Shown: piece after piece, positions 10,922 through 29,262 of the stretch
How positions within the stretch are numbered: position 1 is the stretch's first letter
How the letters are laid out: every line of letters begins with the position of its first letter
Origin: Calditrichia bacterium
GTDB lineage: Bacteria; Calditrichota; Calditrichia; RBG-13-44-9; J075
DNA: 64,000 nt
NCBI GenBank assembly: GCA_050633245.1
Contig: JBOEGD010000024.1
Location: 199,787 to 263,786, forward strand
Reading direction: 5' to 3'
Notes under the pieces: model-generated
What the model was told of the DNA's origin: nothing
Database searches by the model: none
What the model saw: only the letters and a program-made list of their open reading frames with translations
Translations under genes and position numbers: made by a program

Positions 10922-11773
10922 GTGAATAAACAAAAAAAGAGCTCGCTCGCTGTAACAACACATAACAAATGGCTTAGCAATGATGGTATCTTCGCTGGAT
11001 TATTGGAATATTATGCAGCTTATAGCAAAAGGCAATTACACTTGAACTCAAAACGAATTGGTCAAATCAAAAAATTGGTGCGCTATCCGGTTAAGTCGAT
11101 GGCCGGTATCGAGATGGACGAAGCGCTGCTTGGCTGGCATGGATTGACAGGTGATCGCCGTTTTGGTGTCCGTAAGGTAGACAAAGCCGGAGATTTTCCC
11201 TGGCTTACCGCCGGCAGAATGCCGGAACTACTTTTGTATAAGTCAGTTGAATTTGACGCAAATCTTCTTCCGAAAAAAGTACAGACACCCTCCGGCGAAT
11301 TACTGGATATAACGAGCAAGGAGCTGCGCGCCGAGATTCATCGACAGTCTGGTCATCAGGTCGAGCTAATGGCACTGAAGCACGGAATCTTCGATGATGC
11401 CGTTATTTCCCTAATTGCATCTGCAACTGCAGCACATGTTTGCAGCGAAGCCGGAGTTTCGGCAGACAGCAGACGATTTCGCGCAAATATTGAAATCAGC
11501 TGCGACCAACCCTCTCCGTTCGCTGAAGACGATTGGGTGGGAAGCGTTATCTCTTTTGGAGAATCCGCCAATGCACCCGCCGTCCATATCACCAAGCGCG
11601 ACATAAGATGTAAAATGATCAGCCTTGATCCGGATACGGCAGAGCACAGTCCAATAGTTTTAAAAACTGCAGTGCAGTTAAATGATAACAATGCGGGTGT
11701 GTATGGAACGGTTATTCGAACGGGCACCATAAAAGTTGGTGACGCATTGCTTCTACTGAATTGTGCAGAATAA
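10922..11773 (+). CDS. MOSC domain protein (MOSC_N beta-barrel plus MOSC)
   Basis: LVRYPVKSMAGIE....L...GL.GDRRFGV is the MOSC N-terminal beta-barrel signature. The C-terminal half is consistent with a MOSC sulfur-carrier domain. The annotated ATG may be upstream of the real start. Confidence 0.6.
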   Translation: MNKQKKSSLAVTTHNKWLSNDGIFAGLLEYYAAYSKRQLHLNSKRIGQIKKLVRYPVKSMAGIEMDEALLGWHGLTGDRRFGVRKVDKAGDFPWLTAGRMPELLLYKSVEFDANLLPKKVQTPSGELLDITSKELRAEIHRQSGHQVELMALKHGIFDDAVISLIASATAAHVCSEAGVSADSRRFRANIEISCDQPSPFAEDDWVGSVISFGESANAPAVHITKRDIRCKMISLDPDTAEHSPIVLKTAVQLNDNNAGVYGTVIRTGTIKVGDALLLLNCAE

Positions 11774-11923: not shown

Positions 11924-12328
11924 ATGAATAATAAAAATAATCAAAACAAAAAATTTTTACCCATTTGGGTATGGGGAATCGCGCTTGTACAACTTCTTTT
12001 GGTTCTTTTCTTTGCAGCTGGAACAGCAATGAATCCGGAAAATTTTATACCAGGGATTTCAGAATTGGATTATGTGACGCAACTTTATATTACGCGGAAT
12101 GTAACGGTAGTGCTTGGGATAGTTGTTGCTTTGCTCCTTCGGAGTCATAAAGCACTATTTGCAATGTTAATCGTTAGGGTATTGACGGACATATCCGATG
12201 TTATTACGGTATATGCCTTTAATGTAGGAGTAATTAAATCAAGTGTACCGATGGTCGTTGTCATACTTATTATTCCTGCTCTACTAGCTCTCGGGTATTT
12301 GTGGAAGAGAATTAGTCAAGAAAGTTAG
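11924..12328 (+). CDS. small integral membrane protein
   Basis: Four predicted hydrophobic helices. Confidence 0.45.
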   Translation: MNNKNNQNKKFLPIWVWGIALVQLLLVLFFAAGTAMNPENFIPGISELDYVTQLYITRNVTVVLGIVVALLLRSHKALFAMLIVRVLTDISDVITVYAFNVGVIKSSVPMVVVILIIPALLALGYLWKRISQES

Positions 12329-12426
12329 TAAGAAACGCACAAGGCGCTGCAGAGGATGCAGTTTCGCGCTGCTATGTGTAGTTCAAAGGTAGCACTGCAT
12401 ATCGATAGTACGATTAAGGTATAGTA

Positions 12427-12963
12427 ATGGATTTCTCCTCTTATAAAGAAGCAGAAAAAACAGAAATTAGGCGGCTTTTTCATGACGTGTTCTCCCAATC
12501 TGAAGGGCCATCCGAAGGCGCGTTAATAGCAAAGCTGGTGCTCGATCTAATTAATACCACAACGACCCCGGATATCTTTGGGTTCGTTGCTAAGGACGAA
12601 GAGAAGCTCATCGGCAGCATCTTTTTTACACGACTCAGCTTCGATACGCAGATAGAAGCATTTATCCTATCTCCCGTGGCGGTTCACTCAGACTATCAGA
12701 GCAAAGGTATTGGCCAGAAGCTAATTACCCATGGACTTGAACAGTTGAAGAACGCGGGAGTGGAACTGGCGTTTACCTATGGTGATCCGAATTATTATTC
12801 CAAAGTCGGTTTTCAACAGGTTTCGGAAGAAATTATTCAAGCTCCGCTAAAAATGTCACAGCCTGAAGGCTGGTTATGCCAATCGCTTGTTGGAAATGAA
12901 ATTTTGCCGATACAAGATAAACCACGCTGTGTGCCAGCACTGAATGACCCGGTGTATTGGTAG
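12427..12963 (+). CDS. GNAT family N-acetyltransferase
   Basis: Acetyl-CoA binding motif QSKGIGQKLITHGLEQLKNAGVELAFTYGD.NYYSKVGF. Confidence 0.7.
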   Translation: MDFSSYKEAEKTEIRRLFHDVFSQSEGPSEGALIAKLVLDLINTTTTPDIFGFVAKDEEKLIGSIFFTRLSFDTQIEAFILSPVAVHSDYQSKGIGQKLITHGLEQLKNAGVELAFTYGDPNYYSKVGFQQVSEEIIQAPLKMSQPEGWLCQSLVGNEILPIQDKPRCVPALNDPVYW

Positions 12964-13114
12964 GGGATAGACTCTCGCCACAGAGCGGCGAGATATTCAG
13001 TAGGATTAGCCAGCTAGATAAAATAAGAAAAGCCTGCAAGGTTTCTTGCTGATACGAATAAATTAACCTGCTGATTTTGCCTCAATAGCTTAACTTTCAA
13101 CGTGCCGTTCTCTG

Positions 13115-13152
13115 AACCCTTCGGCGTCGCTCAGGATTAACTCCGCTGAAGG
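13115..13152. repeat. copy (inverted orientation) of a ~40-bp recurring extragenic motif (CGGAGnTTATCCTGAGC core)
   Basis: gctcaggattaactccg matches 15/17 positions of the reverse complement of cggagcttatcctgagc at 21084..21100. Confidence 0.4.
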
Positions 13153-13254
13153 TAAAGTGCCAATTGACCTCTTCGCCCAATGAAGAAGTCGTTACCGGCC
13201 AAAATCTTCTTGTAAGTATCTGAGCGTTGTAGTATGTTGTTGCATATTATTCCT

Positions 13255-13344
13255 GAAATTTGGAATAACACACTAAAAACCTCTATCCATAATTATTCTT
13301 TAACAGACTATTTTGTGCTGAAACCACTTCGGTTTTTAATCTCG
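13255..13344 (+). repeat. direct repeat R1 (~90 bp) upstream of the metallophosphoesterase gene
   Basis: ggaataacacactaaaaac...ttctttaacagactattttgtgctgaaaccacttcggtttttaatctcg aligns with 14990..15074 (ttctttaacagactgttctgtgctgaaataccttggtttttgaaaccg). Confidence 0.7.
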
Positions 13345-13562
13345 ATTTGAGACCAGGTTTCATGTAGCTAAATAGGTTGATCTATTAGCAGTGAATTGAG
13401 GCATTCGGTTGTACTTGCGGTATTAGACGGAAGGGATCGGCCTCTATTGACTTGGCGTATTTGTAAAAAACAGGATAAAAACTTAGATAAGCTTAAGAGC
13501 ACCTGTAAGGTTCACTTTGGCTATTAAGAATTCACTCACAACAAGCGAAGGGATCCACCAAT

Positions 13563-14822
13563 ATGTATGACATTGCAAGACTTCAAAAGGCCCTTAAGGA
13601 GATGTGGTCTAAACTAGCACCGGAAGAGCGCGCAAAACTTGAAAAGCAGGCAATTGCCGGCCATGAGTATCTACTTTCTATCCGCTCAGGGGCAGCACCT
13701 GAGATGAAGGCTCCGGTACCGCGCGAGCTATTACTTCTCTACAGCCTGCTTCATGATGACCCGGATGGATTGCTGAAGGATGCTGCTTCGCTCGACTCTG
13801 AAGTAACACATGTTGGAGCTGATGGTGAAGTGTACTTCGGCAATGTTGACTTCGACTCCACCGATCCCAAGTGGGCGTACTGCCCTTGGGCTTGGTATGA
13901 GACCGGACCGACAGTGCCTTTCGCCGCACCTCCGGCTACACCTCCAGCTGTCGTAGAAATCCCTGATACGGCGACTCTGGCAATCCTTGGTGACTGGGGA
14001 GGGAATAACGCTCCGGCGCAGCAGGTTGCCGCCGCTGTTAGAAACATCGAAGCCGACTATTTTGTGCATCTTGGAGACGTCTACTATGCAGGTACGAACG
14101 AGAATGGATTGGTCGAAACTAACTATCAAGAGGAGAATTTTTTAGGCCCATGGCCCGGTACGTCTGGCAAGTCTTTTAACCTGAATTCGAATCATGATAT
14201 GTATGCCCATGCTATCGGATATTTTAATACTGCATTAGCATCTCCAATGTTTTCTGCGCAGGCCGGTTGTAGTTACTTTGCTCTTTTCAACAGTAGCTTT
14301 CGCTTTGTTGGCCTCGATACCGCTTACTTCGACCCCGATCAGAGTGGAACGGGTTTTATGACTGGAAACTTGAATTCCGGACAGGAAGAATTTCTTCTGG
14401 CGCAGGCAAGGAGTGCCGCTCAGCAAAATCAGAAACTCATTCTATTCACGCATCATAATGGATTGTCGATGGACGGAGAGACGAAGTTGTCACTATGGAA
14501 TCAGATTGTCGCTCAGTTGACTCCATTGAATGGACAGTCGGTTATCTGGTATTGTGGCCATGAACATGTTGGAGCGGTATATCAGCCACAAACGGCGGGA
14601 CAAGTCACAATTCTTCCAAGATGCTGCGGTCATGGCTGTATCCCTTGGGGCATACCATCGAATCTTCAGGGAAAAAGTCAAGTACTGTGGTTTGAGGATG
14701 AGGTTCTTGGCCCGGGATCTAATTATTTTGTAACCAACGGCTTTGCGACATTAAGTCTCAATGGAGCTTCGATCACAGAGACTTTTTACAATCAGAGTGG
14801 CGATGCTCACTGGACCAGCTAA
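13563..14822 (+). CDS. calcineurin-like metallophosphoesterase
   Basis: Motifs ILGDWGG, HLGDVYY(A)G and NHD. About 130 aa of N-terminal extension. Confidence 0.65.
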   Translation: MYDIARLQKALKEMWSKLAPEERAKLEKQAIAGHEYLLSIRSGAAPEMKAPVPRELLLLYSLLHDDPDGLLKDAASLDSEVTHVGADGEVYFGNVDFDSTDPKWAYCPWAWYETGPTVPFAAPPATPPAVVEIPDTATLAILGDWGGNNAPAQQVAAAVRNIEADYFVHLGDVYYAGTNENGLVETNYQEENFLGPWPGTSGKSFNLNSNHDMYAHAIGYFNTALASPMFSAQAGCSYFALFNSSFRFVGLDTAYFDPDQSGTGFMTGNLNSGQEEFLLAQARSAAQQNQKLILFTHHNGLSMDGETKLSLWNQIVAQLTPLNGQSVIWYCGHEHVGAVYQPQTAGQVTILPRCCGHGCIPWGIPSNLQGKSQVLWFEDEVLGPGSNYFVTNGFATLSLNGASITETFYNQSGDAHWTS

Positions 14823-14989
14823 TGTAGAGGCTGAAGCCGTCGAAAGCGCATGAATCTGCTACTACGCCATCGGAAAGTGTGACAGATTCATGCAAACTTT
14901 TTAATACTTTGTTGGAGTTGTTACAAAGCTGAAGGTTTTCTGGCGTTTTGCAGATCACTTTATTATGTTATTAGACGTTCTTCTCGGAG

Positions 14990-15074
14990 TTGGGAAAAAC
15001 ACAACAAACTCCCCACTATAAAAACGTTCTTTAACAGACTGTTCTGTGCTGAAATACCTTGGTTTTTGAAACCG
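14990..15074 (+). repeat. direct repeat R2, paralogous to 13255..13344
   Basis: See R1. It contains a small palindrome, GGTTTttgAAACC. Confidence 0.7.
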
Positions 15075-15247
15075 GGTGCTCCAAAAAGCATGTGACTAGT
15101 TGTTGAGCGGTTATCGGATTGAAAAAAATCAGAAAAAAGTATCTATATAATTAACAGTTTAATGCACTAAATACCAAGTCGCACCACCTCCGGCATTCTC
15201 TGCCGGGCTGGAAGTAACCTTGCTCTGCTTATGTATGCGGAGCGAAG

Positions 15248-15658
15248 TTGATACGCGCTAGAAAGAGAATGATTTATGAAGAATTTGATGATCTACAAGA
15301 GCTGTTTTTTATGGGCCCTGAACTCGAAAGCCGACACGCATGGTGGCACTGGGTCTATTTTTTAATGATGCCTGTCTTAGATATTACAGGCCCCTTGTCG
15401 CATATTTTCTCAACGGGGCAATGTGATTACACTTACAAAGATGATGAGCGATTTCCCGGTGTGCGTAATCCGATTACTTTTTACGCCTGGGCTAAGTCTT
15501 ACCATCTCGAATATGACCGTATGGTTGCAACCTTCTTACCCCGGACTCCGGCTCAACGTCGGGATTTAGCTGCGATGAGAGAATATAGTGATATCATTGC
15601 GAAGGCTTTAAGAGAGGCACGCGATATACTGAATGAATCAGATAGTAGTGATGAGTAA
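15248..15658 (+). CDS. hypothetical protein
   Basis: 136-aa ORF. Its 3' end overlaps the degraded YcaQ copy. Confidence 0.35.
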   Translation: MIRARKRMIYEEFDDLQELFFMGPELESRHAWWHWVYFLMMPVLDITGPLSHIFSTGQCDYTYKDDERFPGVRNPITFYAWAKSYHLEYDRMVATFLPRTPAQRRDLAAMREYSDIIAKALREARDILNESDSSDE

Positions 15659-16351
15659 CCCCATGAATATCTCCCTCTCGCTTCAACAAGCCCGTAAGCT
15701 GGCCCTGTTATCGCAGCGACTACCGCCGGTAAATCAAGCCGGTAGCGCAACGGCTGCTACTTTGGCGGCGATTGAGCAGCTCGGTTATATTCAGATCGAT
15801 ACGATCTCCGTCATTCAGCGTGCTCATCACCACACCCTGTGGAATCGCAATCCGCGTTACAAAGCTGTGCAGCTAAGTCAGCTGATTACTGAGAAAAAAG
15901 TGTTCGAATACTGTCTCATGCCGCGGCTTACCTGCCGATGCGCGACTACCAGTTTAGCTTCGTGTGCAAGCATGCCCTTGCAACTGGCACGCTAAAGCAA
16001 TGGTATAAGCGCGATGATAAGATGATAAAGCTGGTGCTGGATCGTATTGCCGGCGAAGGCTCGCTAATGGCCAGAGATTTTGAGCACATTGGTAAAAAGA
16101 TCGGTGACTGGCGAGCCAAGCCGGCCAAGCAGGCACTGGAATATCTGTTTATGCAGGGTGACCTGATGATAGCGAGCCGCGTAAATTTTCACAAGGTGTA
16201 CGACCTTACCGAGCGGGTGCTGCCGGAAGGAATTGGAAGCATTTCAATAGATGCACCGGACTTGTGTTACACCGAACCTCGCCAAAAACGGTTAAACCGG
16301 AGCTGCAGGTGTTGATGGGGAATTTGGCGGGACGCTTGGTGTAATTGAGCC
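15633..16351 (+). pseudogene. degraded duplicate of the YcaQ-family (DUF1006 winged-helix) gene, with frameshifts and a ~570-bp internal deletion
   Basis: Two ORF pieces (15633..15995 and 15938..16315) are about 95% identical in nucleotide sequence to 19813..20390 of the intact gene. A 1-nt deletion (tattggtctcatg becomes tactgtctcatg) breaks the frame. The homologous N-terminal ~190 codons are joined directly to the last ~20 codons (aaccggagctgcaggtgttgatgggg), with another frame change. Confidence 0.75.
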
Positions 16352-16360
16352 GCATTTCGC

Positions 16361-16402
16361 TCCCCTCGGCGGAGTTTATCCTGCCCCTCGGCTCCGCTCG
16401 GG
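16361..16402. repeat. copy of the ~40-bp extragenic motif downstream of the degraded YcaQ copy
   Basis: cccctcggcggagtttatcctgcccctcggctccgctcgg compared with cctctcggcggagcttatcctgagcacctcgactccgctc at 21074..21113. Confidence 0.6.
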
Positions 16403-16534
16403 GAACGGTACTTCTTTCCGCTAGGGGAATGTAAGAGCACGCACCACTGAGTCTCAAACTTCCAGGAGCTCGGTAAATTTTGATCTAAAAGTGGAAAGAA
16501 ATAGAGGTAGAATTGACGGAAACCAATCGTTGAT

Positions 16535-16783
16535 TTGCATAAAAGCTTCTACAGCCCCAAAGCGATATCGATTTCCACATTTTTGGGTGGACCATTGGCC
16601 GCAGGCTACCTAATGGCGCGCAATCTCAAGGCCCTGGGCGATAAGGAATACTGGAAGGATTTTGAAGTTACTAATTATTTTAAGAACTTGAATGTGTCAC
16701 TCAATCAAAGCAATGCGCCAAAACAGATAAAAATTACTCTTTTAATTTATGGCTTTAACGGGCTGGAGAAATATCCGCTCTAA
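16535..16783 (+). CDS. small hypothetical protein
   Basis: 82-aa ORF only. Confidence 0.25.
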   Translation: MHKSFYSPKAISISTFLGGPLAAGYLMARNLKALGDKEYWKDFEVTNYFKNLNVSLNQSNAPKQIKITLLIYGFNGLEKYPL

Positions 16784-16863
16784 CAAACGCATTTAGTGAG
16801 AGAGCAATCCCGTCACGTCGAGTGTGAAGAGAAACAAGTATCGCGCCAGAGCAGCTACACCTG

Positions 16864-18291
16864 ATGCTCGGCGTTATAAGAAGGGGGCTGTCTGTGAATA
16901 AAAAGGAATACCGAATATTTCTACTGGGTGTTGTTGTGCTTGGTGGTTTTTTCGGCACAATCATCTTTTATAATGCCCCCGAAATATGGATGCCGGCACC
17001 AGGTTGGAGCATTCTGAGTTCACTGGTAGCGTCTTTGCTACTTGCCCCGATTATCATTTTTTCTTATCGTCCAAAAACCGGGTTTAAACCTCGAATATTT
17101 CTTGCGCTACTCGTGCTTTGTGGCGCTCTGGTAATGTGGATCGATGCTGCGTATAATGTTCCCGGACCTATCGGGAATTCAGATTCAGGAGTTGCCTCAC
17201 TTTTAATAAATATTCAAACAACGAGTTCCTGGGCATATCGTCTTTTCATTTTAATCCCAATTATTTTTACCGTGTTTGCTCTATGGGTTTGCGGTATGTT
17301 TTCGCTGTCCCTGGCGCGTGGTGTAACCAAGGCAAAAAAAGATTCCCCGAACTATTCGCTAATCACTTTGTCAATAAGCAGCGTAGGCGTTGTATTGCTT
17401 GTAATAATGACCATCGCGAGTGTAATGTTTATCAAAAGTGGGCCAGTCTATGTTCTGTATGCCAACGAATTAAATTTTCCAAAATATAAGTGGGACGAGA
17501 AAGTACTCCAGCTAAAGGAAGATATTCTTACGCGCAGTGATGATGTAAAATCGATTGAAGTTTATCAAGGCTATGTGGATGTCGAGCATACGTTGGCTAA
17601 ATCTATTTTCGAAAAATATGTATTATTGGAACTAACCCAGCAAAAACGTCTGCGACGAGGAAAATTGAGAGCGTCGCTAATTCATGGACTTAAACGCTAT
17701 GAAAGTTCTTTAATATCCATATATGATGACCCGGATCGACCGGCGGTGCCATCTGAGGAAACGTATACATTTGTCGAAAATAATTTTGTTCTGGATCAAA
17801 AAGTGCTCTCGAAATTAGGAATAGATACGGCTGAGTTACCTGATGATGCCGCTGCAAAGCTTCGAATGTCGTCAGAAAAAAGTCTGCCTGAAATAACCAT
17901 AGACATTGCAAATCTAACCATTCCTCTCACCGCGATAGGATCTATCGAGAAAGTTCAGACAGAATATCAGGAAGCGGACTTGCCTACGCCCCGCTGGGAA
18001 TTGTTCTCATTGATTCAGAAAGACTCACCAACCGGAGTTTTAGTCTCTCTTAATGAGCATTATATTAGAAGCTTTGGTCTAAGCTTGAGCGCTATAGAAA
18101 CCACCATTATGGAATATATCGGGGCGCAGACTCTCCCAATTGATATTCGCTCATTTGAAGAGATCGTGCTTGCAAGTTCTGATAATGGACAGAAGATAAG
18201 ACTTCGTGATATTGCCAGGGTGGATCGTAGCGAGCTCAACGATCGCTATCGTACTATTAACGGTCGTTTCTACGATATTCGGTTGCAATAA
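16864..18291 (+). CDS. membrane protein with an N-terminal polytopic domain (~5 TM) and a C-terminal soluble domain of unknown function
   Basis: Hydrophobic helices in the first ~200 aa. AT-rich gene. Confidence 0.5.
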   Translation: MLGVIRRGLSVNKKEYRIFLLGVVVLGGFFGTIIFYNAPEIWMPAPGWSILSSLVASLLLAPIIIFSYRPKTGFKPRIFLALLVLCGALVMWIDAAYNVPGPIGNSDSGVASLLINIQTTSSWAYRLFILIPIIFTVFALWVCGMFSLSLARGVTKAKKDSPNYSLITLSISSVGVVLLVIMTIASVMFIKSGPVYVLYANELNFPKYKWDEKVLQLKEDILTRSDDVKSIEVYQGYVDVEHTLAKSIFEKYVLLELTQQKRLRRGKLRASLIHGLKRYESSLISIYDDPDRPAVPSEETYTFVENNFVLDQKVLSKLGIDTAELPDDAAAKLRMSSEKSLPEITIDIANLTIPLTAIGSIEKVQTEYQEADLPTPRWELFSLIQKDSPTGVLVSLNEHYIRSFGLSLSAIETTIMEYIGAQTLPIDIRSFEEIVLASSDNGQKIRLRDIARVDRSELNDRYRTINGRFYDIRLQ

Positions 18292-18409
18292 AATGCAGAT
18301 CGGCGCGGATATCACGGCCTCTGCACATGGCCAGGCTGTGTTGATAATAGTGACATCCCAAGAAACCAAACTAAATATGCCTCCCCGCAGGGGCTAAAAA
18401 GCCAGCTCG

Positions 18410-18919
18410 GTGATCGTGGTCGTCAGGAGACCACAGGAGAATATGGAATCGTCCTATAAAAGCTATATAAAACGATATTTTGTAGTATTGCTCCTTGATA
18501 GCGAGGAAGAATATTCATCACTAATAGAAAAGCTTTCAGAATATCTATTGCAGAAGAGTCGTGATGCAATTGCATATCACAATCGAGGTCTGGCTTATCT
18601 TGAAATGGGGAATGAGAAGGGTTTAAAAGACATTGAACGAAGTATCTCGATTGATGGTAATAGAAAAGAGCCCTACAAAGTTTTAGGTCTATTTTGGGAA
18701 CGAAACTTGGATTTAAAGCAGGCTTTGGCGTATTTTACTAAAACAATTGAAGCAGATGTTAATGATGCTAAAAACTATAGATGTCGAGCTTCAGTTCAGG
18801 AAGCGCTTGGTGATTTAGATAGCGCTATAAGCGATCTAAATAAAGCAATAGAACTTGAACCGACATTTGAATACACAATAAAGCTGCGAGATAAATTACA
18901 ATCACGTGCAAGCTCTTGA
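18410..18919 (+). CDS. TPR repeat protein
   Basis: Three to four 34-aa TPR-like units (AIAYHNRGLAYLEMGN ... ALAYFTKTIEAD ... AISDLNKAIELEP). Confidence 0.6.
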   Translation: MIVVVRRPQENMESSYKSYIKRYFVVLLLDSEEEYSSLIEKLSEYLLQKSRDAIAYHNRGLAYLEMGNEKGLKDIERSISIDGNRKEPYKVLGLFWERNLDLKQALAYFTKTIEADVNDAKNYRCRASVQEALGDLDSAISDLNKAIELEPTFEYTIKLRDKLQSRASS

Positions 18920-18998
18920 CAAGGCGCTGCGCTCCCAATTTGCGCCGAGCACGGCGTTATGAATATCAATCTTGCCATTTGAACATTGAGTATCATTC

Positions 18999-19667
18999 AT
19001 GAAGTGGTTCAAAAAATTTTTTACATTGAGTATCTTTCGTGACACCCAAACCACGGAAAATAGCACTGAACAGATTGCATCGTCCGAGATAAAGGATATT
19101 GACTTATACGTGGACGAATATCTTGCCAGGTTCAATGTGAATGTAGACTATTCTGGTGATCAGAGAGATCACCAGCTTTTAGATAAAATCCGCAGAGATG
19201 CAGCCGACCAGGAAGATGATATTGTCCTTTCAGCTTTGCTAAACGGCCTTGAGAAAACAGCGAAATTCGGGATACTTTCGTTTGAGGGAAAGTCCTTCCT
19301 TAAGGCCATCGGGCAGCTCGGTGATCGAAAGGCTGTCGGCCCCCTGCGGTTGCTTTTTGATAGTTTTGTTGACCCCAAGAAACGCGCAGACCGTGATTTA
19401 GTTACCTTAACGCTATTCTCACTAGGGGATTTAAATTGGATTAAAGAACGAGTCTCTTTGCAAGATCTGGTCATGATGCTCGTTGTGTCTAAAATTAATA
19501 CTGATGGTTCAATTCGGTTCACGCACCATTTGAGTGGTGCCACAATTGTTGAAGCTGGAGAGCTCTTGCAAAGAGATGGTGATTTTCACGCGCTCTTGGA
19601 GTTGACGATGGCACACAATAGTTATGCTGAGCAAGAAGTGGTTGTAAAAGCAATCAGCACAACTTAG
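18999..19667 (+). CDS. hypothetical protein
   Basis: 222-aa ORF. Confidence 0.4.
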   Translation: MKWFKKFFTLSIFRDTQTTENSTEQIASSEIKDIDLYVDEYLARFNVNVDYSGDQRDHQLLDKIRRDAADQEDDIVLSALLNGLEKTAKFGILSFEGKSFLKAIGQLGDRKAVGPLRLLFDSFVDPKKRADRDLVTLTLFSLGDLNWIKERVSLQDLVMMLVVSKINTDGSIRFTHHLSGATIVEAGELLQRDGDFHALLELTMAHNSYAEQEVVVKAISTT

Positions 19668-19812
19668 AGCTGTATTAGCGCAGAGTCTTTTTGTCGCACC
19701 TGATCACCATACACCAAACGTATATCAAGCGCATGCAGTCGGACAAATTGCCCGCTTCGCGCACCTTGCTGCTCGATGCTGCTCGATTCCACCCATTGGA
19801 AACTGTTGACCT

Positions 19813-21015
19813 ATGAAAGAATCGCTATCTATTCAACAAGCCCGAAAACTGGTGCTGCTATCGCAGAAACTGCCGCCTACAAAGCAGACCGGTGGCGCAA
19901 CAGCAGCCACCCTGGCTGCAATTGAACACCTCGGCTATATTCAGATCGATACGATTTCCGTCATTCAGCGTGCCCATCACCATACTCTGTGGAATCGCAA
20001 TCCGCGTTACAAAGCTGTGCAGCTAAGTCAGCTGATTACTGAGAAAAAAGTGTTCGAGTATTGGTCTCATGCCGCAGCTTACCTGCCGATGCGTGACTAC
20101 CGGTTTAGCTTGGTGCGCAAGCATGCCCTTGCAACTGGCACGCTAAAGCAATGGTATAAGCGCGATGATAAGATGATAAAGCTGGTGCTAGACCGTATTG
20201 CCGGCGAAGGCCCGTTGATGGCCAGAGATTTTGAGTATACCGGTAAAAAGGTCGGTGACTGGCGAGCCAAGCCGGCCAAGCAGGCGCTGGAATATCTGTT
20301 TATGCAGGGTGACCTGATGATAGCAAGCCGCGTGAATTTTCACAAGGTGTACGACCTTACCAAGCGGGTGTTGCCGGAAGGAATTGATACCACATTGCCG
20401 GAACCGGAGGAATACGCCCGATTTCTGATTACGCAGTATTTACGCGCGAATGGTCTGGGACAACCCGCCGAAATGGCTTATTTGTTGACCAATACCAAGC
20501 GACGTGTTACCGCTACTGTGCAGGAAATGGTTGAGGCCGGAGAGCTGCTGCAGGTTTCCGTTGCCGATAACAGCTACTATGTGCTGCCGGAATCACTGGA
20601 GCTGCTAAGTAAACCGTTGGCGCGTAGCAAGTTGAAGATTCTGTCGCCATTCGACAATCTGCTCATCCAGCGGAAGCGAATGCAGGCGCTGTTTGAATTC
20701 GACTATCTAATTGAATGCTATGTGCCGCAGGTCAAGCGCCAATACGGCTATTTCTCTCTGCCCATTCTATGGGATGGCAAGCTGGTCGCGCGAATGGACT
20801 GCAAAGCAGACCGGAAGACAACGCTGCTGCATATTCATAATCTTGCCATAGAACCCACGGTAAAGAAAACCGACGTGCTTTTCAACGCGCTGCGTAAGGA
20901 ACTGGAAGCCTTCCTACATTTTAATGACTGTACCGGGCTGGTACTGCACAAGACTTCGCCTGCAAAAGTTAAATCGGAGCTGCAGGTTTTGATGGGGGAT
21001 CTTCTCGCTTCTTGA
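19813..21015 (+). CDS. YcaQ-family winged-helix protein (DUF1006; interstrand-crosslink repair DNA glycosylase family)
   Basis: 400 aa. N-terminal IQIDTISVIQRAHHHTLWNR.PRY pattern. Length and overall pattern fit the YcaQ family. Confidence 0.65.
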   Translation: MKESLSIQQARKLVLLSQKLPPTKQTGGATAATLAAIEHLGYIQIDTISVIQRAHHHTLWNRNPRYKAVQLSQLITEKKVFEYWSHAAAYLPMRDYRFSLVRKHALATGTLKQWYKRDDKMIKLVLDRIAGEGPLMARDFEYTGKKVGDWRAKPAKQALEYLFMQGDLMIASRVNFHKVYDLTKRVLPEGIDTTLPEPEEYARFLITQYLRANGLGQPAEMAYLLTNTKRRVTATVQEMVEAGELLQVSVADNSYYVLPESLELLSKPLARSKLKILSPFDNLLIQRKRMQALFEFDYLIECYVPQVKRQYGYFSLPILWDGKLVARMDCKADRKTTLLHIHNLAIEPTVKKTDVLFNALRKELEAFLHFNDCTGLVLHKTSPAKVKSELQVLMGDLLAS

Positions 21016-21073
21016 ACGAAGCAGAAGGGGTGAGAGGATGCTATGTTAATTATCTCTAAGTGTTTTATACCAG

Positions 21074-21113
21074 CCTCTCGGCGGAGCTTATCCTGAGCAC
21101 CTCGACTCCGCTC
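21074..21113. repeat. copy of the ~40-bp extragenic motif downstream of the intact YcaQ gene
   Basis: cctctcggcggagcttatcctgagcacctcgactccgctc. A partial fourth copy, cttcgactccgctc, is at 47117..47130. Confidence 0.6.
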
Positions 21114-21160
21114 TGTGTGACAATTCCATTTCGACTCAATACTTTCTGGCGATTTTATCA

Positions 21161-21207
21161 AAAAGGTGCAAATGTAATATTTCATGTTACATTTGCACCT
21201 TTTTTAC
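21161..21207 (+). terminator. rho-independent terminator (17-bp perfect stem)
   Basis: aaaaggtgcaaatgtaa - tatttcatg - ttacatttgcacctttt followed by ttact. It lies downstream of the YcaQ gene. Confidence 0.6.
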
Positions 21208-21386
21208 TCTGTCCTTTTCTATTGCTGTAATTCCTTCGTTATTTTTTTGAATAACAGAGTACCTCTTGGAATTTGTATTCCTATATTTCCAACTGCTGCA
21301 TTTGATTGGCTTTGCTTTTTGGTTAATCAAGTTCATCACGTATATCCATGTCGAATTTATCCAATTCATCCATGTTTGGTTAATCC

Positions 21387-22517
21387 ATGCAACATAGCTA
21401 TGACATCCTAGTTCTCGGCCTTGGCGGTATGGGCAGCGCAATTGCTTACGAGCTGTCCAAGCGCGGCGTATCCGTGGGCGGGGTTGAGCAGTTTGAACCG
21501 CTACACAACAAGGGCGGCACCCATGGTGAGAGTCGGATTATTCGCAAGGCCTACCCGGAGAAGCCGGATTATGTGCCGCTGCTGAATCGCTCGTATGAGC
21601 TATGGGATGAATTGGAGCAGCATGCCGACAGAAAGCTGCGCAATGAATGTGGCTTTCTGGTTGCCGGCCATAGAGATTCTCCTTACCTACAGGATTTGGA
21701 TAACGCCTATCAACATTATCCGCTTACACATGAACGCTGGAGCGCAACTGAGTTAGCGCAGCATTTTCCTCAGTTCAACCTTCCCGAAGACTATCGCGCA
21801 TATTTTGATCCCTTTGGTGGATTTCTGTATGTCGATCGCTGCCTGCAGGCGCATCAGGATTTAGCTGTTCGCAATGGCGCGACGCTTTGTTTCAATGAAA
21901 AAGTGCGATCCTGGCAACATAACGGCGATTGCGTCGTGCTGAAAACGGATAAGCAAACGCTGCATGCAAAAAAACTGATTATCGCCTCGGGTGCCTGGAT
22001 GAAGCCGGAGCTTGCCAAACTCGATATCGAACTGCGCATCTGGCGTCGCGTTATTTTTTGGTATGGTCAGCAGCAAACATTTTCTCCGGAGAAATTTCCA
22101 TCCTTTGTTATTGAGCATCAGAATACCGGATTTTACGGATTGCCCGCCTTGGGAGAGCAGGGCGTAAAAATCGGCGAACACAATATTCCATTTGATATTG
22201 CAGTGCCGGAAGACTCAACCCAGCCGGTTACGCAAGCAGAGGAGGAGGTAATAGAACGATGTGTGTGGGACATTTTTCCGATGTTAGGTAAAAAAATAGA
22301 GCGCATTAAAACCTGCCTCTATGCCGTTTCGCCTGATCGTCATTTTATTCTCGATCATCATCCCGAACATAAGCATGTTTTACTGGCCGGTGGTTTTTCG
22401 GGACACGGCTATAAGTTTGCCACTGCTATTGGGGAGGTCATGGCTGATTTGGCGCTGGAGGGTAAGACGAAACATCCGATAGACTTTCTATCCCTGAAAC
22501 GCTTCCAATCCAAATAG
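21387..22517 (+). CDS. solA: FAD-dependent N-methyl-L-tryptophan / sarcosine oxidase (monomeric, MTOX-like)
   Basis: The dinucleotide-binding motif DILVLGLGGMGSAIAYEL, the length (376 aa) and the C-terminal GHGYKFA motif are typical of SolA/MSOX. Confidence 0.7.
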   Translation: MQHSYDILVLGLGGMGSAIAYELSKRGVSVGGVEQFEPLHNKGGTHGESRIIRKAYPEKPDYVPLLNRSYELWDELEQHADRKLRNECGFLVAGHRDSPYLQDLDNAYQHYPLTHERWSATELAQHFPQFNLPEDYRAYFDPFGGFLYVDRCLQAHQDLAVRNGATLCFNEKVRSWQHNGDCVVLKTDKQTLHAKKLIIASGAWMKPELAKLDIELRIWRRVIFWYGQQQTFSPEKFPSFVIEHQNTGFYGLPALGEQGVKIGEHNIPFDIAVPEDSTQPVTQAEEEVIERCVWDIFPMLGKKIERIKTCLYAVSPDRHFILDHHPEHKHVLLAGGFSGHGYKFATAIGEVMADLALEGKTKHPIDFLSLKRFQSK

Positions 22518-22574
22518 TTTGTCAATATCGCATCAAAACACTAAGTTCCGGGACTCAATAACTCAGGTTCGATC

Positions 22575-24245
22575 ATGCCGCTGAATGCGACAAGCTCTCC
22601 GCCAGCTCCACCAAAACGAAATTTTATTAAAAAGCTACTGCCGTTTATGGGGCTGTTTGGGCTACTGGTTTGCTTTAACCTTGTTTACAATATTAATCCT
22701 TTTAGTGGAATACAGTGGAGCGATCTCTTACCGGCTCCCGAGCTGTTTTTGCTGTTTTTACTGCTTTGTTTAACGATCGATCTGAATCTCCGCTTACCGG
22801 TATTGTTCTGGGGGGCAATTCTGACGACGCTGTGGTTTTTGCGCATCTTTGGTTTGGCCGATCAGGCAATGCCGTACTATTTTGACCGTCAGTTTAATCT
22901 ATATATAGACACTGGTTATGCGCTGGACTTGCTGGATCTGTTTTACCTCACCACATCTTTGGGAGGATTTCTCCTGACAATCCTTCTGAGCATTTCAACG
23001 GTTGTCGGTTTTGTTTATTTATCCTGGCGCGGACTATTCAAGCTGAAGAAATTATTGCATGAGGTGACGCTACGGCGATCCGTTCTTGCTCTGCTATTGC
23101 TATTAGCCTTTAGCGGATTTGTCGTAACGAAAATGAGCACACAACAGAGAATGCTCTCGATAAGTGGTTACCTGCCTCGCTTTTCAGAAGAAGTTCGATT
23201 TATCTCGGAGGTGCAAAAAATTGGGCGAGAATTCAACGCCGAGCTTGAAGCGGTGCGTTTTGAGGCCGCCAAGCTGCCGCAGGATTTGGTTGGCTTGAAT
23301 GAGAGCAATGTCTTACTGTTTTTTGTCGAGTCCTACGGCCATTCTTCTCTTACACATGCCGAATATGGACCATTAGTCCAACCAGCTTTACAAGAAATGC
23401 AGACGTCGCTGGGCGCAGCGGGATTTGAGATGGTCTCCAGCTATATGGGATCGCCGACTTATGGCGGCACCTCCTGGCTGGCACATGGTGCATTTAGCAG
23501 CGGAGTGGCGGTACACGATCAACTTCGTTTTGATATGCTATTGAAGTCAGATGTAAAAGCGCTGCCGCGTTACTTTGACCATGCGGGCTACCGAACAATC
23601 TGCGTAATGCCCGGCACGCGTTATGCTTGGCCGGAAGGTGCCTGGTTTGGCTATCAGGAGAAGATCTTTGCCGATGATTTTGCCTATGCCGGACCGACAT
23701 ACGGCTGGTCTCCCATGCCCGATCAGTTTGTAATCGATCGTGTGCATCGCAAGCATTTAGCCGAGAGCCCTTCACCGATTTTTGCCGAGTTTGTTTTGGT
23801 CTCCAGCCATGCTCCGTTTCATATTCAGCCACCATACGTTGTGGATTGGTCGCGAATCGGAAATGGAGCCATTTATGACGACCTTCAGCCGCTTCGCTAT
23901 AATATAGAATGGCCTAAGATGGAGAATGCTGCGGAAGGCTATTCGCGTTCCATTAGCTATGTGCTGAAGAGCCTGGAAGAGTATCTGCTGCAGTTTATCG
24001 ATGACAATTCACTGATTATCATTCTCGGTGACCATCAGCCGAACCTGGCATTAACCGGTCCGAACCAGCCGTGGTCGGTGCCGATTCACGTCATCAGTCG
24101 GAATACGGAACTGTTGAAGCCGTTTCGTGCGCGCGACTATATTTCGGGAATGATTCCCAATCAGCAGTGGCCGCATCCGGGAATGGAGTCTTTTTTGCCG
24201 AATTTCCTGCTGGATTTCTCCGGTTCAAATCGCCTCGCGGATTGA
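22575..24245 (+). CDS. alkaline-phosphatase-superfamily membrane protein (LTA-synthase / phosphotransferase-like sulfatase domain)
   Basis: N-terminal 5-6 TM helices. C-terminal domain with VLLFFVESYG (metal-binding Glu region), GTSWLAHG and SSHAPF motifs. Confidence 0.5.
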   Translation: MPLNATSSPPAPPKRNFIKKLLPFMGLFGLLVCFNLVYNINPFSGIQWSDLLPAPELFLLFLLLCLTIDLNLRLPVLFWGAILTTLWFLRIFGLADQAMPYYFDRQFNLYIDTGYALDLLDLFYLTTSLGGFLLTILLSISTVVGFVYLSWRGLFKLKKLLHEVTLRRSVLALLLLLAFSGFVVTKMSTQQRMLSISGYLPRFSEEVRFISEVQKIGREFNAELEAVRFEAAKLPQDLVGLNESNVLLFFVESYGHSSLTHAEYGPLVQPALQEMQTSLGAAGFEMVSSYMGSPTYGGTSWLAHGAFSSGVAVHDQLRFDMLLKSDVKALPRYFDHAGYRTICVMPGTRYAWPEGAWFGYQEKIFADDFAYAGPTYGWSPMPDQFVIDRVHRKHLAESPSPIFAEFVLVSSHAPFHIQPPYVVDWSRIGNGAIYDDLQPLRYNIEWPKMENAAEGYSRSISYVLKSLEEYLLQFIDDNSLIIILGDHQPNLALTGPNQPWSVPIHVISRNTELLKPFRARDYISGMIPNQQWPHPGMESFLPNFLLDFSGSNRLAD

Positions 24246-25022
24246 GCGCACAAATGATTCAACATTCGAACAAGCCGTTGGCAAATCCTTGCTATCGCGG
24301 ATCGTATTAATCACTGCGCTTCCGATAATCACGCCGTCACCATACTCCGCCATTGCTTTGGCCGTCTCCGTATTTGAAATACCGAAGCCAATCAAAACCG
24401 GCAGATCGGTCATGCGTTTCAATCGCTTCAAAAATATGCCGGTTTCTTCCGGCAGGCTTTGTCGCGCGCCGGTTACTCCGGTTAATGAAACCGCGTAGAT
24501 AAATCCACGACTGTTCTTCAGCACATTATTCACCCGTGCCTCAGGTGTATTTGGGCTTACCAGATATATAAGATCCAGCCCGTTTTTCAACGCCTCCTGA
24601 TCAAGCAGTTCACTTTCCTCCGGTGGAAGGTCGGGAATGATAAATCCTGAGGCGCCTGCTTCTACTGTATCTGCACACAGTTTCTCCCAACCATAGCGAT
24701 AGAATGGATTGGCATATCCCATCAGAATTACCGGTACATCAGATTCTTTGCGAAACTCCCGAAGCAGATCCAGCGTTTTCTCCAGCGTAATACCCGCTTC
24801 CAGTGCTTGCTGTGAGGCAGCCTGTATTGTAGGACCATCCGCAAGCGGATCGCTGAATGGAACGCCCAGTTCAATTAACTCTGCACCGCCTTTTACCAGG
24901 CTGCTCAGTAGGGGAAGCGTCGCATCTAAGTTCGGATAGCCTGCTGTTAGATAAATTGATACAATTTTACGGTTTGCCGCGCGTTTTTCCATCAAATACT
25001 GACTAAGTGTTGAAGTGCTCAT
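24225..25022 (-). CDS. trpA: tryptophan synthase alpha subunit
   Basis: IYLTAGYP...ELGVPFSDPLADGPTIQ. The start ATG at 25022..25020 overlaps the trpB stop. Confidence 0.9.
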   Translation of the reverse strand: MSTSTLSQYLMEKRAANRKIVSIYLTAGYPNLDATLPLLSSLVKGGAELIELGVPFSDPLADGPTIQAASQQALEAGITLEKTLDLLREFRKESDVPVILMGYANPFYRYGWEKLCADTVEAGASGFIIPDLPPEESELLDQEALKNGLDLIYLVSPNTPEARVNNVLKNSRGFIYAVSLTGVTGARQSLPEETGIFLKRLKRMTDLPVLIGFGISNTETAKAMAEYGDGVIIGSAVINTIRDSKDLPTACSNVESFVRSIREAI

Positions 25023-25023
25023 A

Positions 25024-26232
25024 TTAGTTTCCCTCCAGCAGTACCGAAACGGTTTCCATGTCTTTGTCACCGCGCCCGCTAAGGCAAATTATCAGTGATT
25101 CCTCCGGCGCCATTTCCGGTGCGACTTTCAGCGCGTGTGCTACGGCATGTGCAGTTTCGAGCGCAGGAATGATGCCTTCACACTGTGAAAGCAATGCCAG
25201 CGCATCCAGCGCTTCGCTATCGGTTGCAGAGGTGTATTCGACTCGTCCACTCTTCATCAGAAAAGAGTGCTCAGGTCCAACACCGGGATAGTCCAGCCCG
25301 GCGGAGACAGAGTGTACATCACCGACCTGCCCGTCATTTGTTTGAATAAGATAGGTTTTCATACCGTGCAAAATCCCTGGTTCGCCATATGTTAGTGTCG
25401 CGGCATGGTCGCCAACATTGCCACCGCGTCCACCCGCTTCAATGCCAATAAGCCGAACGTTCTCATCATCCACGAACGGAGCAAACATACCCATGGCGTT
25501 CGAGCCGCCACCCACGCAGGCAAGAACGGCATCGGGTAAGCGTCCCTCCTTCTCCAGATGCTGCTGTCGTGTTTCTACTCCGATAATCGCCTGAAAATCA
25601 CGCACCATTTGCGGATAAGGATGTGGACCAACCACCGAGCCGATGCAGTAAAAGGTGTTGTGCACATTAGTTACCCAGTCGCGGATAGCTTCATTTATCG
25701 CATCTTTCAGTGTTCTGCTACCGCTGGTAACCGGTACAACCGTTGCCCCGAGCAGCTTCATGCGAAACACGTTTAAGCGTTGACGACGAATATCTTCTGC
25801 GCCCATATATACGATGCATTCCATGCCGAATTTAGCCGCAACGGTTGCTGTTGCCACGCCGTGCTGCCCGGCACCGGTCTCGGCAATAATGCGCTTCTTG
25901 CCCATTTGTTTTGCCAATAACAGTTGACCCAGCACATTGTTGATTTTATGTGCCCCGGTATGATTCAAGTCTTCACGCTTTAAATAGATTCTTGCTCCGC
26001 CAAGCTTATCGGTCAAGCGGTCGGCGAACGTGAGTGGATTGGGTCGACCGGCATATTCGCGCAGATAATAGCCGAATTCCTGTTGAAATGATTCGTCCTG
26101 TTGCGATGTCAGATAGGCTGTTTCGAGTTCATCAATAACCGGTATTAAGACTTCTGGAATAAACTTGCCGCCAAACTGACCGAAACGGCCATTTTTATCG
26201 GGTAATTCGGCTGTTTTAGTGCGATGTTCCAT
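25024..26232 (-). CDS. trpB: tryptophan synthase beta subunit
   Basis: PLP-enzyme motifs ([15 protein letters not shown]). Confidence 0.95.
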
Positions 26233-29253: not shown

Positions 29254-29262
29254 TGTTTTCCT

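What the first reader, a model, noticed from the sequence alone, without database searches (positions are those of the whole stretch)
15633..21015. YcaQ-family gene present as an intact copy plus a degraded, internally deleted duplicate bracketing a low-GC four-gene insert
15633..16351 is about 95% identical in nucleotide sequence to the 5' 580 bp of the intact YcaQ-family gene (19813..21015). It carries a 1-nt frameshift and a ~570-bp internal deletion that joins the N-terminal region directly to the last ~20 codons. The same ~40-bp extragenic motif follows both copies. The four genes in between are visibly more AT-rich than their surroundings: a small ORF, a membrane protein, a TPR protein and a hypothetical protein. 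The geometry looks like a duplication-and-insertion scar, consistent with horizontal acquisition of the insert or a target-site event. No recombinase is present.
Basis: seen in the sequence. Interest (0 to 1): 0.6.

Follow-up and report, generated by a model that had tools for sequence, protein, structure and literature searches.

The report
Broken second copy of YcaQ gene
A Calditrichia genome carries one working DNA-crosslink-repair gene (YcaQ type) and, 4 kb upstream, the wreck of a second, anciently diverged copy whose middle was later made the same by recombination; this is an ordinary recombination scar, not a new kind of system.

Summary
The window comes from a Calditrichia MAG. It has an intact YcaQ-like glycosylase gene (B, 19813-21015) and a dead copy (A, 15663-16345). 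A carries a 1-nt deletion, a 518-nt deletion between AAGGAAYTG repeats, and an 8-nt deletion. A is not a fresh duplicate of B. The first 123 nt are 73% identical, which is no closer than homologues from other phyla. The next 448 nt are 94% identical, and the tail is 78% identical (breakpoint permutation p<1/5000). A 38-nt motif follows both copies.

The "four-gene low-GC insert" is three conserved genes plus one ORF that is broken in the only relative. Its GC is 42.4% against a window mean of 45.6%, so it is low but within range. The YcaQ copies are the GC-rich outliers.

The only relative found is a 7.9-kb metagenome contig. It shares the three-gene block and the region upstream of B, but its left flank is unrelated. 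No recombinase was found among the window's ORFs of 150 aa or more.

The best reading is homologous (Campbell-type) integration of foreign DNA that carried a diverged YcaQ allele and the block, at the resident YcaQ, followed by decay of one chimeric copy. The main rival is neighbouring paralogues with later gene conversion. Interest is low.

The parts
15248..15658 (+). 136-aa ORF with no known relatives. Its stop codon lies 4 nt before the ATG of copy A, so A sits in an operon-like position without an upstream region of its own.
   Evidence: No Pfam, NCBIfam or PADLOC hit. No relative found in the metagenome scan.
15663..15785 (+). Copy A (pseudogene), anciently diverged 5' segment. It is 73% identical to B 19813-19935, and 21 of 41 third codon positions differ.
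15786..16233 (+). Copy A, recombination (conversion) tract. It is 94% identical to B 19936-20384. It contains the Q-I-D catalytic motif region and the 1-nt deletion at 15912/15913.
   Evidence: (family D1).
16227..16239 (+). Deletion junction in copy A. AAGGAATTG is followed by GAAG, joining B 20386 to B 20905 (518 nt lost between imperfect 9-nt direct repeats). An 8-nt deletion follows immediately.
16240..16345 (+). Copy A, C-terminal remnant of about 35 codons in its native frame (HFNRCTGLVLHRTSPKTVKPELQVLMGNLAGRLV*). It is 78% identical to B and has its own distinct C-terminus.
   Evidence: (family D3).
16362..16399 (+). 38-nt extragenic motif downstream of copy A.
16400..16470 (.). Synteny breakpoint zone. 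Homology to the relative L081 begins at about 16465-16470. To the left of that point L081 carries unrelated genes.
16535..16783 (+). It is frameshifted and stopped in L081, so it is probably not a gene, or is itself a remnant.
16864..18291 (+). Membrane protein (475 aa as ORF; annotated as 465 aa from 16894). It belongs to a rare family. It is 88% identical at the protein level to the L081 copy, and differences by codon position are 42:19:77.
18410..18919 (+). TPR-repeat protein (likely start 18443, 158 aa). It has the lowest GC3 in the window (28.8%).
18999..19667 (+). 222-aa hypothetical protein. It is conserved in L081 at 81% amino-acid identity.
   Evidence: Structure prediction was uninformative.
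19668..19812 (+). Upstream region of copy B. It is shared with L081 up to that contig's end (window 19802). The last ~23 nt resemble the segment proximal to the ATG in YcaQ homologues from other phyla.
19813..21015 (+). Copy B, the intact YcaQ-like (YQL) DNA glycosylase gene. It has the Q44-I45-D46 motif.
   Evidence: The motif definition is from PMC9040887.
21074..21113 (+). The same extragenic motif downstream of copy B.
21160..21204 (.). Perfect 21-bp hairpin flanked by an A-run and a T-run. It looks like a bidirectional terminator closing the B unit.
   Evidence: pair I2.: -27.4 kcal/mol, z -8.0.

Best explanation
The locus is the scar of a homologous, recombinase-independent insertion at a resident YcaQ gene.

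Before the event, a resident YcaQ gene (R) sat directly behind the 136-aa ORF and was followed by solA. Foreign DNA then arrived carrying a diverged YcaQ allele (I), its upstream region, and the three-gene block. That DNA was circular or circularly permuted. It crossed over with R inside the gene, in the stretch that is most conserved at nucleotide level.

A single crossover of this Campbell type leaves two reciprocal chimeras in direct orientation with the imported DNA between them. Copy A would be R 5' end, then exchange tract, then I 3' end and flank. Copy B would be I upstream region and 5' end, then exchange tract, then R 3' end. The heteroduplex or conversion tract at the crossover makes the middle of the two copies alike, while both ends keep the old R-versus-I divergence. 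One glycosylase gene is enough, so copy A decayed: a 1-nt deletion, a 518-nt slippage deletion between 9-nt repeats, and an 8-nt deletion. That deletion also shortened the direct repeat that could otherwise delete the insert.

Shown: the two copies, the lesions, the mosaic identity with its breakpoint, the boundary of the block in a relative, and the absence of a recombinase.

Inferred: the order of events, the circular intermediate, and which segments came from R and which from I.
For: - Geometry. The two copies lie in direct orientation 4.15 kb apart and bracket the block. None of 80 other YcaQ loci from many phyla has a second copy or remnant within 10 kb. Adjacency therefore needs a mechanism, and homology-targeted integration provides one.
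- Mosaic identity. 27% of positions differ before A 15785 and 5.8% after it (permutation p<1/5000; third positions 21/41 versus 17/149). The tail is again 22% different. Constraint does not explain this, because B is equally distant (about 25%) from other homologues in the 5' and middle segments.
- Breakpoint position. The 5' breakpoint sits at the start of the family's most nucleotide-conserved stretch (B 19933-19992), where exact runs of up to 40 nt are shared even with other phyla.
- Reciprocal affinity, in the direction this model predicts. At sites where A and B differ, the family consensus sides with B 20:9 in the 5' end but with A 9:5 in the tail (Fisher p=0.052).
- The relative. L081 carries the block contiguous with the region upstream of B. 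To the left of about 16470 it has unrelated genes, which is where a circle junction would lie.
- Upstream context. A has no upstream region of its own, with its ATG 4 nt after the preceding stop. B has a 145-nt upstream region.
- No integrase, transposase or other recombinase domain was found in any ORF of 150 aa or more in the 64 kb.
Against: - The reciprocal-chimera prediction is only borderline (p=0.052, on 14 tail sites). A second test was not decisive. Distances to the closest clade, normalised by reference family members, gave tails of 1.29 for A and 1.31 for B. B's 3' half was 1.14-1.16, where 1.35 would be expected if it came from the A-type lineage.
- Recombination between sequences about 75% identical is inefficient.
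- A 4.15-kb circular or permuted intermediate is postulated, not observed.
- The tract is 94% identical, not 100%, so the event is old, and long direct repeats should tend to delete the insert.
- There is only one comparator contig. It ends 10 nt before the B start codon, so what follows the block there is unknown.
- No genome with an empty site was found.
Confidence: 0.4

Rival explanations
1. There were two long-standing YcaQ paralogues or xenologues. One stood behind the 136-aa ORF. The other stood behind the three-gene block. They came to lie 3.3 kb apart through an unrelated rearrangement or insertion at a variable left border. Later, an ectopic gene-conversion event copied about 450 bp or more of one copy into the other, probably from A into B. 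The redundant copy A then decayed.
For: - The mosaic pattern of diverged ends and a 94% identical centre is the classic footprint of an internal conversion tract.
- The tract is A-type in both copies. Normalised distance to the closest clade is 1.39 for B and 1.44 for A in the tract, and 1.35 for A in the 5' end, but 1.01 for B in the 5' end.
- L081 shows that the block and the region upstream of B are contiguous in a second lineage, while the left side varies.
- Some genomes do carry several copies of this gene, for example two Acaryochloris plasmids and two contigs each in two MAGs.
Against: - It needs two independent events, and the adjacency and direct orientation are left to chance.
- No other locus among 80 has two copies within 10 kb.
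- It does not predict the reversal of consensus affinity between the 5' end and the tail. That signal is weak, however.
Confidence: 0.3
2. A recent tandem duplication of one YcaQ gene occurred, possibly as a target-site type event. A foreign four-gene cassette was then inserted between the copies, and one copy decayed.
For: - The copies are direct repeats that bracket the block.
- A 448-nt stretch is 94% identical.
- The shared 3' motif is present after both copies.
- The block has slightly low GC.
Against: - Both ends of A are 22-27% different from B, with differences biased to third codon positions (8:4:20 and 5:2:10). Decay of a pseudogene cannot make its ends four times more diverged than its middle.
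- 33 of 79 homologues from other phyla are closer to B than A is at the 5' end.
- Homology does not extend upstream of the ATG.
- There is no target-site duplication and there are no terminal repeats around the block.
Confidence: 0.05
3. The arrangement is an assembly artefact. The MAG contig joins pieces from co-existing strains or genomes at a repeated YcaQ sequence, so the tandem arrangement does not exist in any cell.
For: - The source is a metagenome-assembled genome.
- The relative contig L081 stops 10 nt before the YcaQ start, which is typical of a contig break at a repeat.
- The 1-nt deletion lies in a GG dinucleotide and could be a sequencing error.
Against: - A join inside the shared tract would produce a chimeric full-length gene. 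It would not produce a copy with its own diverged 5' end, a microhomology-flanked 518-nt deletion, its own tail and stop codon, and a 3' motif, followed by 70 nt of unique sequence before the block.
- The contig is 415 kb long.
Confidence: 0.07

Closest known systems
YcaQ-like (YQL) subfamily of the HTH_42 / AlkZ-like DNA glycosylases (E. coli YcaQ; Pfam PF06224)
   Same: - B gives a full-length PF06224 match (E 2.8e-78).
- Both B and the remnant A have the Q-Phi-D motif (Q-I-D) that defines YQL proteins, as opposed to the (Q/H)-Phi-Q motif of AlkZ-like proteins (PMC9040887).
- B matches the solved chain 9zd6_A at E 1.2e-47.
   Different: - In Streptomyces, YQL genes are reported to have highly conserved neighbourhoods (PMC9040887). 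Here the clade has no conserved neighbourhood across 80 loci. It occurs on Acaryochloris plasmids. It is 67-77% identical across many phyla.
- Enzyme activity was not tested.
Campbell-type (single-crossover, ends-in) integration by homologous recombination, as with non-replicating plasmids that carry a chromosomal fragment
   Same: - Direct repeats of the homologous gene flank the inserted DNA.
- No site-specific recombinase is needed.
- The copies are expected to be reciprocal chimeras with a conversion patch at the crossover.
   Different: - The partners were only about 75% identical outside the tract.
- No vector or replication genes are present.
- The circular intermediate is hypothetical.
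- Chimerism is only weakly indicated.
Ectopic gene conversion between paralogues within one genome (for example the duplicated tuf genes of enterobacteria; from my own knowledge)
   Same: There is an internal tract of high identity bounded by diverged sequence, with a breakpoint in a conserved stretch.
   Different: In those cases both copies stay functional and are repeatedly homogenised. Here one copy is dead and the tract has already diverged by 6%.
Genomic islands integrated by tyrosine recombinases into the 3' end of a gene, leaving a partial duplicate of the target
   Same: There is an intact gene on one side of an accessory block and a partial copy on the other.
   Different: - There is no integrase.
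- The repeat covers the whole gene from the ATG to the 3' flank, rather than a short att core.
- The orientation and extent of the repeat do not fit attL/attR.

Membership tests
YQL subfamily of AlkZ-like/HTH_42 DNA glycosylases (copy B) | Full-length AlkZ-like domain (PF06224) | tested here: met
   Residues 37-370 match profile positions 1-329 of 329. E 2.8e-78, 264 bits against a cut-off of 25.9.
YQL subfamily of AlkZ-like/HTH_42 DNA glycosylases (copy B) | Catalytic Q-Phi-D motif (AlkZ-like proteins have (Q/H)-Phi-Q instead) | tested here: met
   Q44-I45-D46 lies in GYIQIDTISV and aligns with vIQIDSvnV of PDB 9zd6_A. The motif definition is from PMC9040887.
YQL subfamily of AlkZ-like/HTH_42 DNA glycosylases (copy B) | Glycosylase activity on N7-alkylguanine lesions or interstrand crosslinks | not testable with these tools
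   This needs biochemistry.
Pseudogene (copy A) | Homology to a functional gene along with lesions that prevent a full-length product | tested here: met
   A has a 1-nt deletion, a 518-nt deletion and an 8-nt deletion. The reading frame is broken twice. The longest ORFs are 120 and 125 aa.
Recent tandem duplicate of the intact gene | Roughly uniform, high identity over the whole duplicated unit | tested here: not met
   Identity is 73%, 94% and 78% in the 5' end, middle and tail. Breakpoint permutation p<1/5000.
Integrase-mediated genomic island or integrative element | Site-specific recombinase gene in or beside the insert | tested here: not met
   No recombinase, integrase or transposase domain was found in any ORF of 150 aa or more in the window. 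Smaller ORFs were not all scanned.
Integrase-mediated genomic island or integrative element | Short att or target-site direct repeats at the two ends of the insert | tested here: not met
   The repeat finder on 14000-23000 reports no short direct repeats bounding 16470-19802. It reports only the gene-length YcaQ repeats and the 3' motif.
Campbell-type homologous integration scar | Homologous sequences in direct orientation on both sides of the insert | tested here: met
Campbell-type homologous integration scar | The two copies are reciprocal chimeras of a resident and an incoming allele | tested here: inconclusive
   Consensus affinity reverses between the 5' end (B 20: A 9) and the tail (A 9: B 5), p=0.052. 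Normalised distances do not separate the two tails.
Campbell-type homologous integration scar | An empty site (single gene, no insert) in related genomes | not testable with these tools
   No relative carrying the flanking genes was found. The best match to the 419-aa flank is 65% identical, and the best match to solA is 40%. The neighbourhoods of the 419-aa protein's homologues are unrelated.
Phage or defence island cargo | Block proteins match phage or defence families | tested here: not met
   PADLOC gave no meaningful hit. The viral contig scans found no relatives.

The most novel reading that the evidence does not exclude
This clade of YcaQ-like glycosylase genes may behave as a free-standing, frequently transferred cargo. 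It moves between phyla without any mobility gene of its own and installs itself by homeologous recombination with whatever resident copy it meets. On that reading, the window caught an allele replacement in progress: incoming and resident alleles recombined, the incoming DNA brought three neighbouring genes along, and the surplus chimera is being erased. If this is general, conserved DNA-repair genes could serve as landing pads that carry adjacent foreign genes into distant genomes.
Probability: 0.2. Interest if true: 0.45.

Novelty: new member of a known kind. Interest (0 to 1): 0.2.

Why it matters
Mostly it does not. A decaying redundant gene copy and a recombination tract are everyday genome evolution.

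The modest value is as a worked example. Two features separate recombination between diverged alleles from simple duplication: the mosaic identity, and a breakpoint placed in the most conserved stretch of the gene. The example also shows that a gene-length repeat bracketing accessory genes can arise without any recombinase.

There is a side observation with more promise. This YcaQ clade is spread across many phyla at 67-77% protein identity. Two MAGs, one binned as a cyanobacterium and one as a planctomycete, share 90% nucleotide identity. This suggests unusually active horizontal transfer of a DNA-crosslink repair gene, which could reflect selection by environmental genotoxins.

Tried and rejected
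Searches for related genomes:
- Exact-protein look-ups of B, solA and the MAG's own proteins found nothing on record.
- The plasmid collection gave no match to 12000-25000.
- A concatenated query of the 419-aa flank and solA found no close relatives (best 65% and 40%) and did not return the MAG's own proteins. Absence in that database is therefore weak evidence.
- A metagenome scan for the last 28 nt of L081, meant to walk the assembly graph, found nothing, not even L081 itself.
- A metagenome scan with the 136-aa ORF found no relative.
- Viral scans with the 475-aa and 222-aa proteins found none.
- Neighbourhoods of homologues of the 419-aa protein (L082-L084) and of distant homologues of the 475-aa protein (L085-L087) contain no YcaQ, TPR or 222-aa gene.

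RNA and regulatory elements:
- There are no tRNA genes.
- There are no Rfam matches except a chance miRNA-like hit on the terminator hairpin.
- The upstream region shared by many homologues has no consensus RNA structure. Its identity simply tracks third-codon-position identity. I therefore read it as co-transferred DNA rather than a constrained element. Only about 23 nt next to the ATG are recognisable upstream of B.
- The promoter and terminator scan found no more sites than in shuffles.

The extragenic motif:
- It was considered as a dispersed or mobile repeat. A third copy at 13132-13150 on the minus strand matches only a 21-nt core and is marginal.
- Folding of the motif is not better than shuffles.
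- An integron attC reading was considered and dropped. There is no integrase, and I saw no attC-like core sites on reading the motif; no attC model was run.

Structures:
- Structure predictions for the 222-aa and 475-aa proteins had pLDDT of about 36. No fold search was run on them.

A retracted note:
- A 51-nt stretch identical to L081 (19694-19744) first looked special. Longer exact runs occur in the coding parts, so it is not.

Full report
**Source and setting**

The intact gene product is 100% identical to a protein of a Calditrichia bacterium MAG on a 415-kb contig. The next best database protein is 78% identical. The 64-kb window has a mean GC of 45.6%. All large ORFs from 1 to 24 kb are on the + strand. 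To the right of the locus lie solA, an N-methyl-L-tryptophan oxidase equivalog (E 5e-123), then a sulfatase-like membrane protein, then a complete trp operon on the opposite strand. To the left lie accessory-looking genes: a metallophosphoesterase of 419 aa, a 136-aa ORF without relatives, a GNAT, and MOSC and DUF2071 proteins.

**Checking the observation**

- Copy B (19813-21015, 400 aa) is a full-length AlkZ-like/YcaQ protein (PF06224, E 2.8e-78). It has the Q-I-D motif that defines the YcaQ-like subfamily.
- Copy A begins at ATG 15663, which is 4 nt after the stop codon of the 136-aa ORF.
- A runs collinear with B to 16233. It lacks one base at 15912/15913 (TGG to TG).
- A then jumps to the equivalent of B 20905. 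In B, the missing 518 nt are bounded by AAGGAATTG and AAGGAACTG. This points to slippage or microhomology-mediated deletion.
- A further 8 nt are missing just after the junction.
- About 35 C-terminal codons remain readable in their native frame. They end at A's own stop codon at 16343-16345, with a C-terminus different from B's.
- A 38-nt motif follows both copies: 34 of 38 identical, score 48 against a maximum of 24 in 500 shuffles. It lies 17 nt after A's stop codon but 59 nt after B's.

**The key new fact: the similarity is mosaic**

- Up to A 15785 there are 33 differences in 123 nt. After it there are 26 in 448 nt. The maximum chi-square breakpoint was never matched in 5000 permutations.
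- At third codon positions the contrast is 21/41 against 17/149.
- The tail is again 22% different.
- Different constraint does not explain this. B is about 25% different from homologues of other phyla in both the 5' and the middle segments.
- Over the first 123 nt, 33 of 79 homologues from other phyla are closer to B than A is.
- Differences in all three segments are concentrated at third positions: 8:4:20, 7:2:18 and 5:2:10. The divergence therefore accumulated while the sequences were coding.
- A pseudogene cannot decay four times faster at its ends than in its middle.

A is therefore not a recent duplicate of B. Two old, diverged alleles or paralogues exchanged their central part. The 5' breakpoint lies at the start of the stretch that is most conserved at nucleotide level in the whole family (B 19933-19992). 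There, exact runs of up to 40 nt are shared even with other phyla. That is a plausible place for recombination between diverged sequences.

**The DNA in between**

- The 475-aa membrane protein has only one close relative in 5.8 billion proteins (89% identical). An exhaustive HMMER search found 18 representatives in 1.84 billion proteins.
- That close relative sits on a 7.9-kb metagenome contig, L081. L081 matches the window from 16470 to 19802 at 88.5% identity and nowhere else.
- The three genes (membrane protein, TPR protein, 222-aa protein) are conserved between the window and L081, with third-position-biased differences.
- To the left of the shared block, L081 carries unrelated genes. One is a KAP-like NTPase that matches a candidate defence family.
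- L081 ends 10 nt before the B start codon, inside the upstream region of B.
- The left edge of the block, about 70 nt beyond A's 3' motif, is therefore a true synteny break. The block is contiguous with the region upstream of B in a second lineage.

**Composition**

The block is 42.4% GC, the 2.8th percentile of 3.3-kb windows. This is within the range of the window (minimum 41.6%). The TPR gene has the lowest GC3 (28.8%) and B the highest (57.9%) of 43 ORFs. The visible contrast owes at least as much to the GC-rich YcaQ copies as to an AT-rich insert.

**Mobility genes**

Pfam scans of every ORF of 150 aa or more in the window found no integrase, transposase or other recombinase. There are no tRNA genes. 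No short repeats bound the block. There are no phage or defence hits for the block proteins.

**Mechanism**

Two models remain.

- *Model 1, Campbell-type homologous integration.* DNA carrying a diverged YcaQ allele, its upstream region and the block crossed over with the resident YcaQ. This left two reciprocal chimeras around the imported DNA, with a conversion patch at the crossover. One copy later decayed.
  - A single event accounts for the adjacency, the direct orientation, the mosaic, the lack of a recombinase, the L081 boundary, and the fact that only B has an upstream region of its own.
  - Adjacency needs explaining, because none of 80 other loci has a second copy within 10 kb.
- *Model 2, neighbouring paralogues with later ectopic gene conversion.* This explains the mosaic equally well, but leaves the geometry to chance.

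I tried to separate the two models.

- At sites where A and B differ, the family consensus sides with B in the 5' end (20:9) and with A in the tail (9:5). Model 1 predicts this reversal, but p is only 0.052.
- Distances to the closest clade, normalised by other family members, show that the shared tract is A-type in both copies (1.39 and 1.44, against 1.01 for the 5' end of B). They do not separate the two tails (1.29 and 1.31).

The segments are too short to decide. I give model 1 a confidence of 0.4 and model 2 a confidence of 0.3. A literal recent duplication followed by an insertion is contradicted by the mosaic. A misassembly is unlikely given A's unique ends and its deletion junction, but it cannot be excluded without reads.

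**Comparison with what is known**

B is a member of the YcaQ-like subfamily by domain and catalytic motif. Its activity is untested. The locus as a whole is an instance of well-known processes: homologous integration or gene conversion, followed by pseudogene decay. It is not an integrase-type island, an integron cassette or a transposon, because the defining features of those were tested and not met.

**Verdict**

There is an insertion or recombination scar with horizontally shared DNA and no recombinase. The degraded copy is not a duplicate of the intact gene, and the compositional argument is weak. I rate it as a new member of a known kind, with low interest (0.2). The more interesting thread is the wide cross-phylum spread of this YcaQ clade, which is recorded under things noticed in passing.

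Noticed in passing
Loci L001-L080 (YcaQ at about 10001-11200 in most): This YcaQ clade is 67-77% identical in protein to copy B across cyanobacteria, Planctomycetota, Verrucomicrobiota, Desulfobacterota, Bacteroidota, Spirochaetota, Acidobacteriota and a Methanolobus MAG. It includes isolate genomes and two Acaryochloris marina plasmids, and the neighbourhoods are unrelated. L001 is from a Leptolyngbyaceae (cyanobacterial) MAG and L002 from a Pirellulaceae (planctomycete) MAG. They share 90% nucleotide identity over the first 570 nt (80% at third positions), so, unless one contig is misbinned, transfer between phyla looks recent.
   Followed up: partly
About 95 nt upstream of the ATG in L001, L002, L004, L008, L010, L013, L017, L020, L022, L024, L028, L029, L031-L033, L036 and L048; window 19790-19812: Many homologues share a non-coding upstream segment (...tatcggcacgattttgattctcc...ggtccgctggagactgctgaccc ATG). 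Some have a shorter form that lacks about 20 nt. It has no consensus RNA structure, and its identity tracks third-position identity of the gene. It therefore looks like co-transferred promoter or ribosome-binding-site DNA. Copy B keeps only the proximal ~23 nt, and copy A has none.
   Followed up: partly
Window 13132-13150 (- strand): This is a third, weaker occurrence of the core of the extragenic motif (16 of 19 positions). It lies between the GNAT gene and the 419-aa gene, in inverted orientation relative to the copy after A. In shuffles a match this close to the 19-nt core is rare (0.01 expected per window), but the wider local alignment scores no better than the best shuffles. The motif was not found in L081 (profile scan) and its 19-nt core has no exact match in the 80 other loci.
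   Followed up: partly
L081 23-1669: In the relative contig, the genes to the left of the shared block include a 548-aa KAP-like P-loop NTPase. It matches the candidate defence family PDC-S49 (E 2.6e-21). It is followed by a 594-aa membrane protein, which suggests that this border is a variable or defence-island region.
   Followed up: no
L005, L012, L020, L031, L036 (starting 4 nt before the YcaQ stop codon): Several homologues have a small ORF of about 90-170 aa that overlaps the YcaQ stop codon by 4 nt, so it may be a co-transcribed partner. The window has no such ORF. It was not checked whether these small ORFs are related to one another.
   Followed up: no
Window 16864-18291: The 475-aa membrane protein belongs to a very small family, with 18 representative clusters in 1.84 billion proteins at 23-46% identity. 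In the three contexts examined it occurs as a solitary gene. Its C-terminal ~45 residues weakly resemble an AcrB porter subdomain (E 0.0074, below the Pfam cut-off).
   Followed up: partly
Window 21387-30738: solA (N-methyl-L-tryptophan oxidase equivalog) lies about 1.7 kb from a complete, convergently oriented trp operon, with a sulfatase-like membrane protein gene between them. This is a functionally coherent neighbourhood, and it marks the right flank of the locus as core genome.
   Followed up: no
Window 37659-45425: A three-gene run encodes a YqiJ-like membrane protein, a 692-aa protein without Pfam hits, and a 1657-aa protein with DUF3686 ('ATPase involved in DNA repair', E 4.6e-182) and DUF7902.
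   Followed up: no
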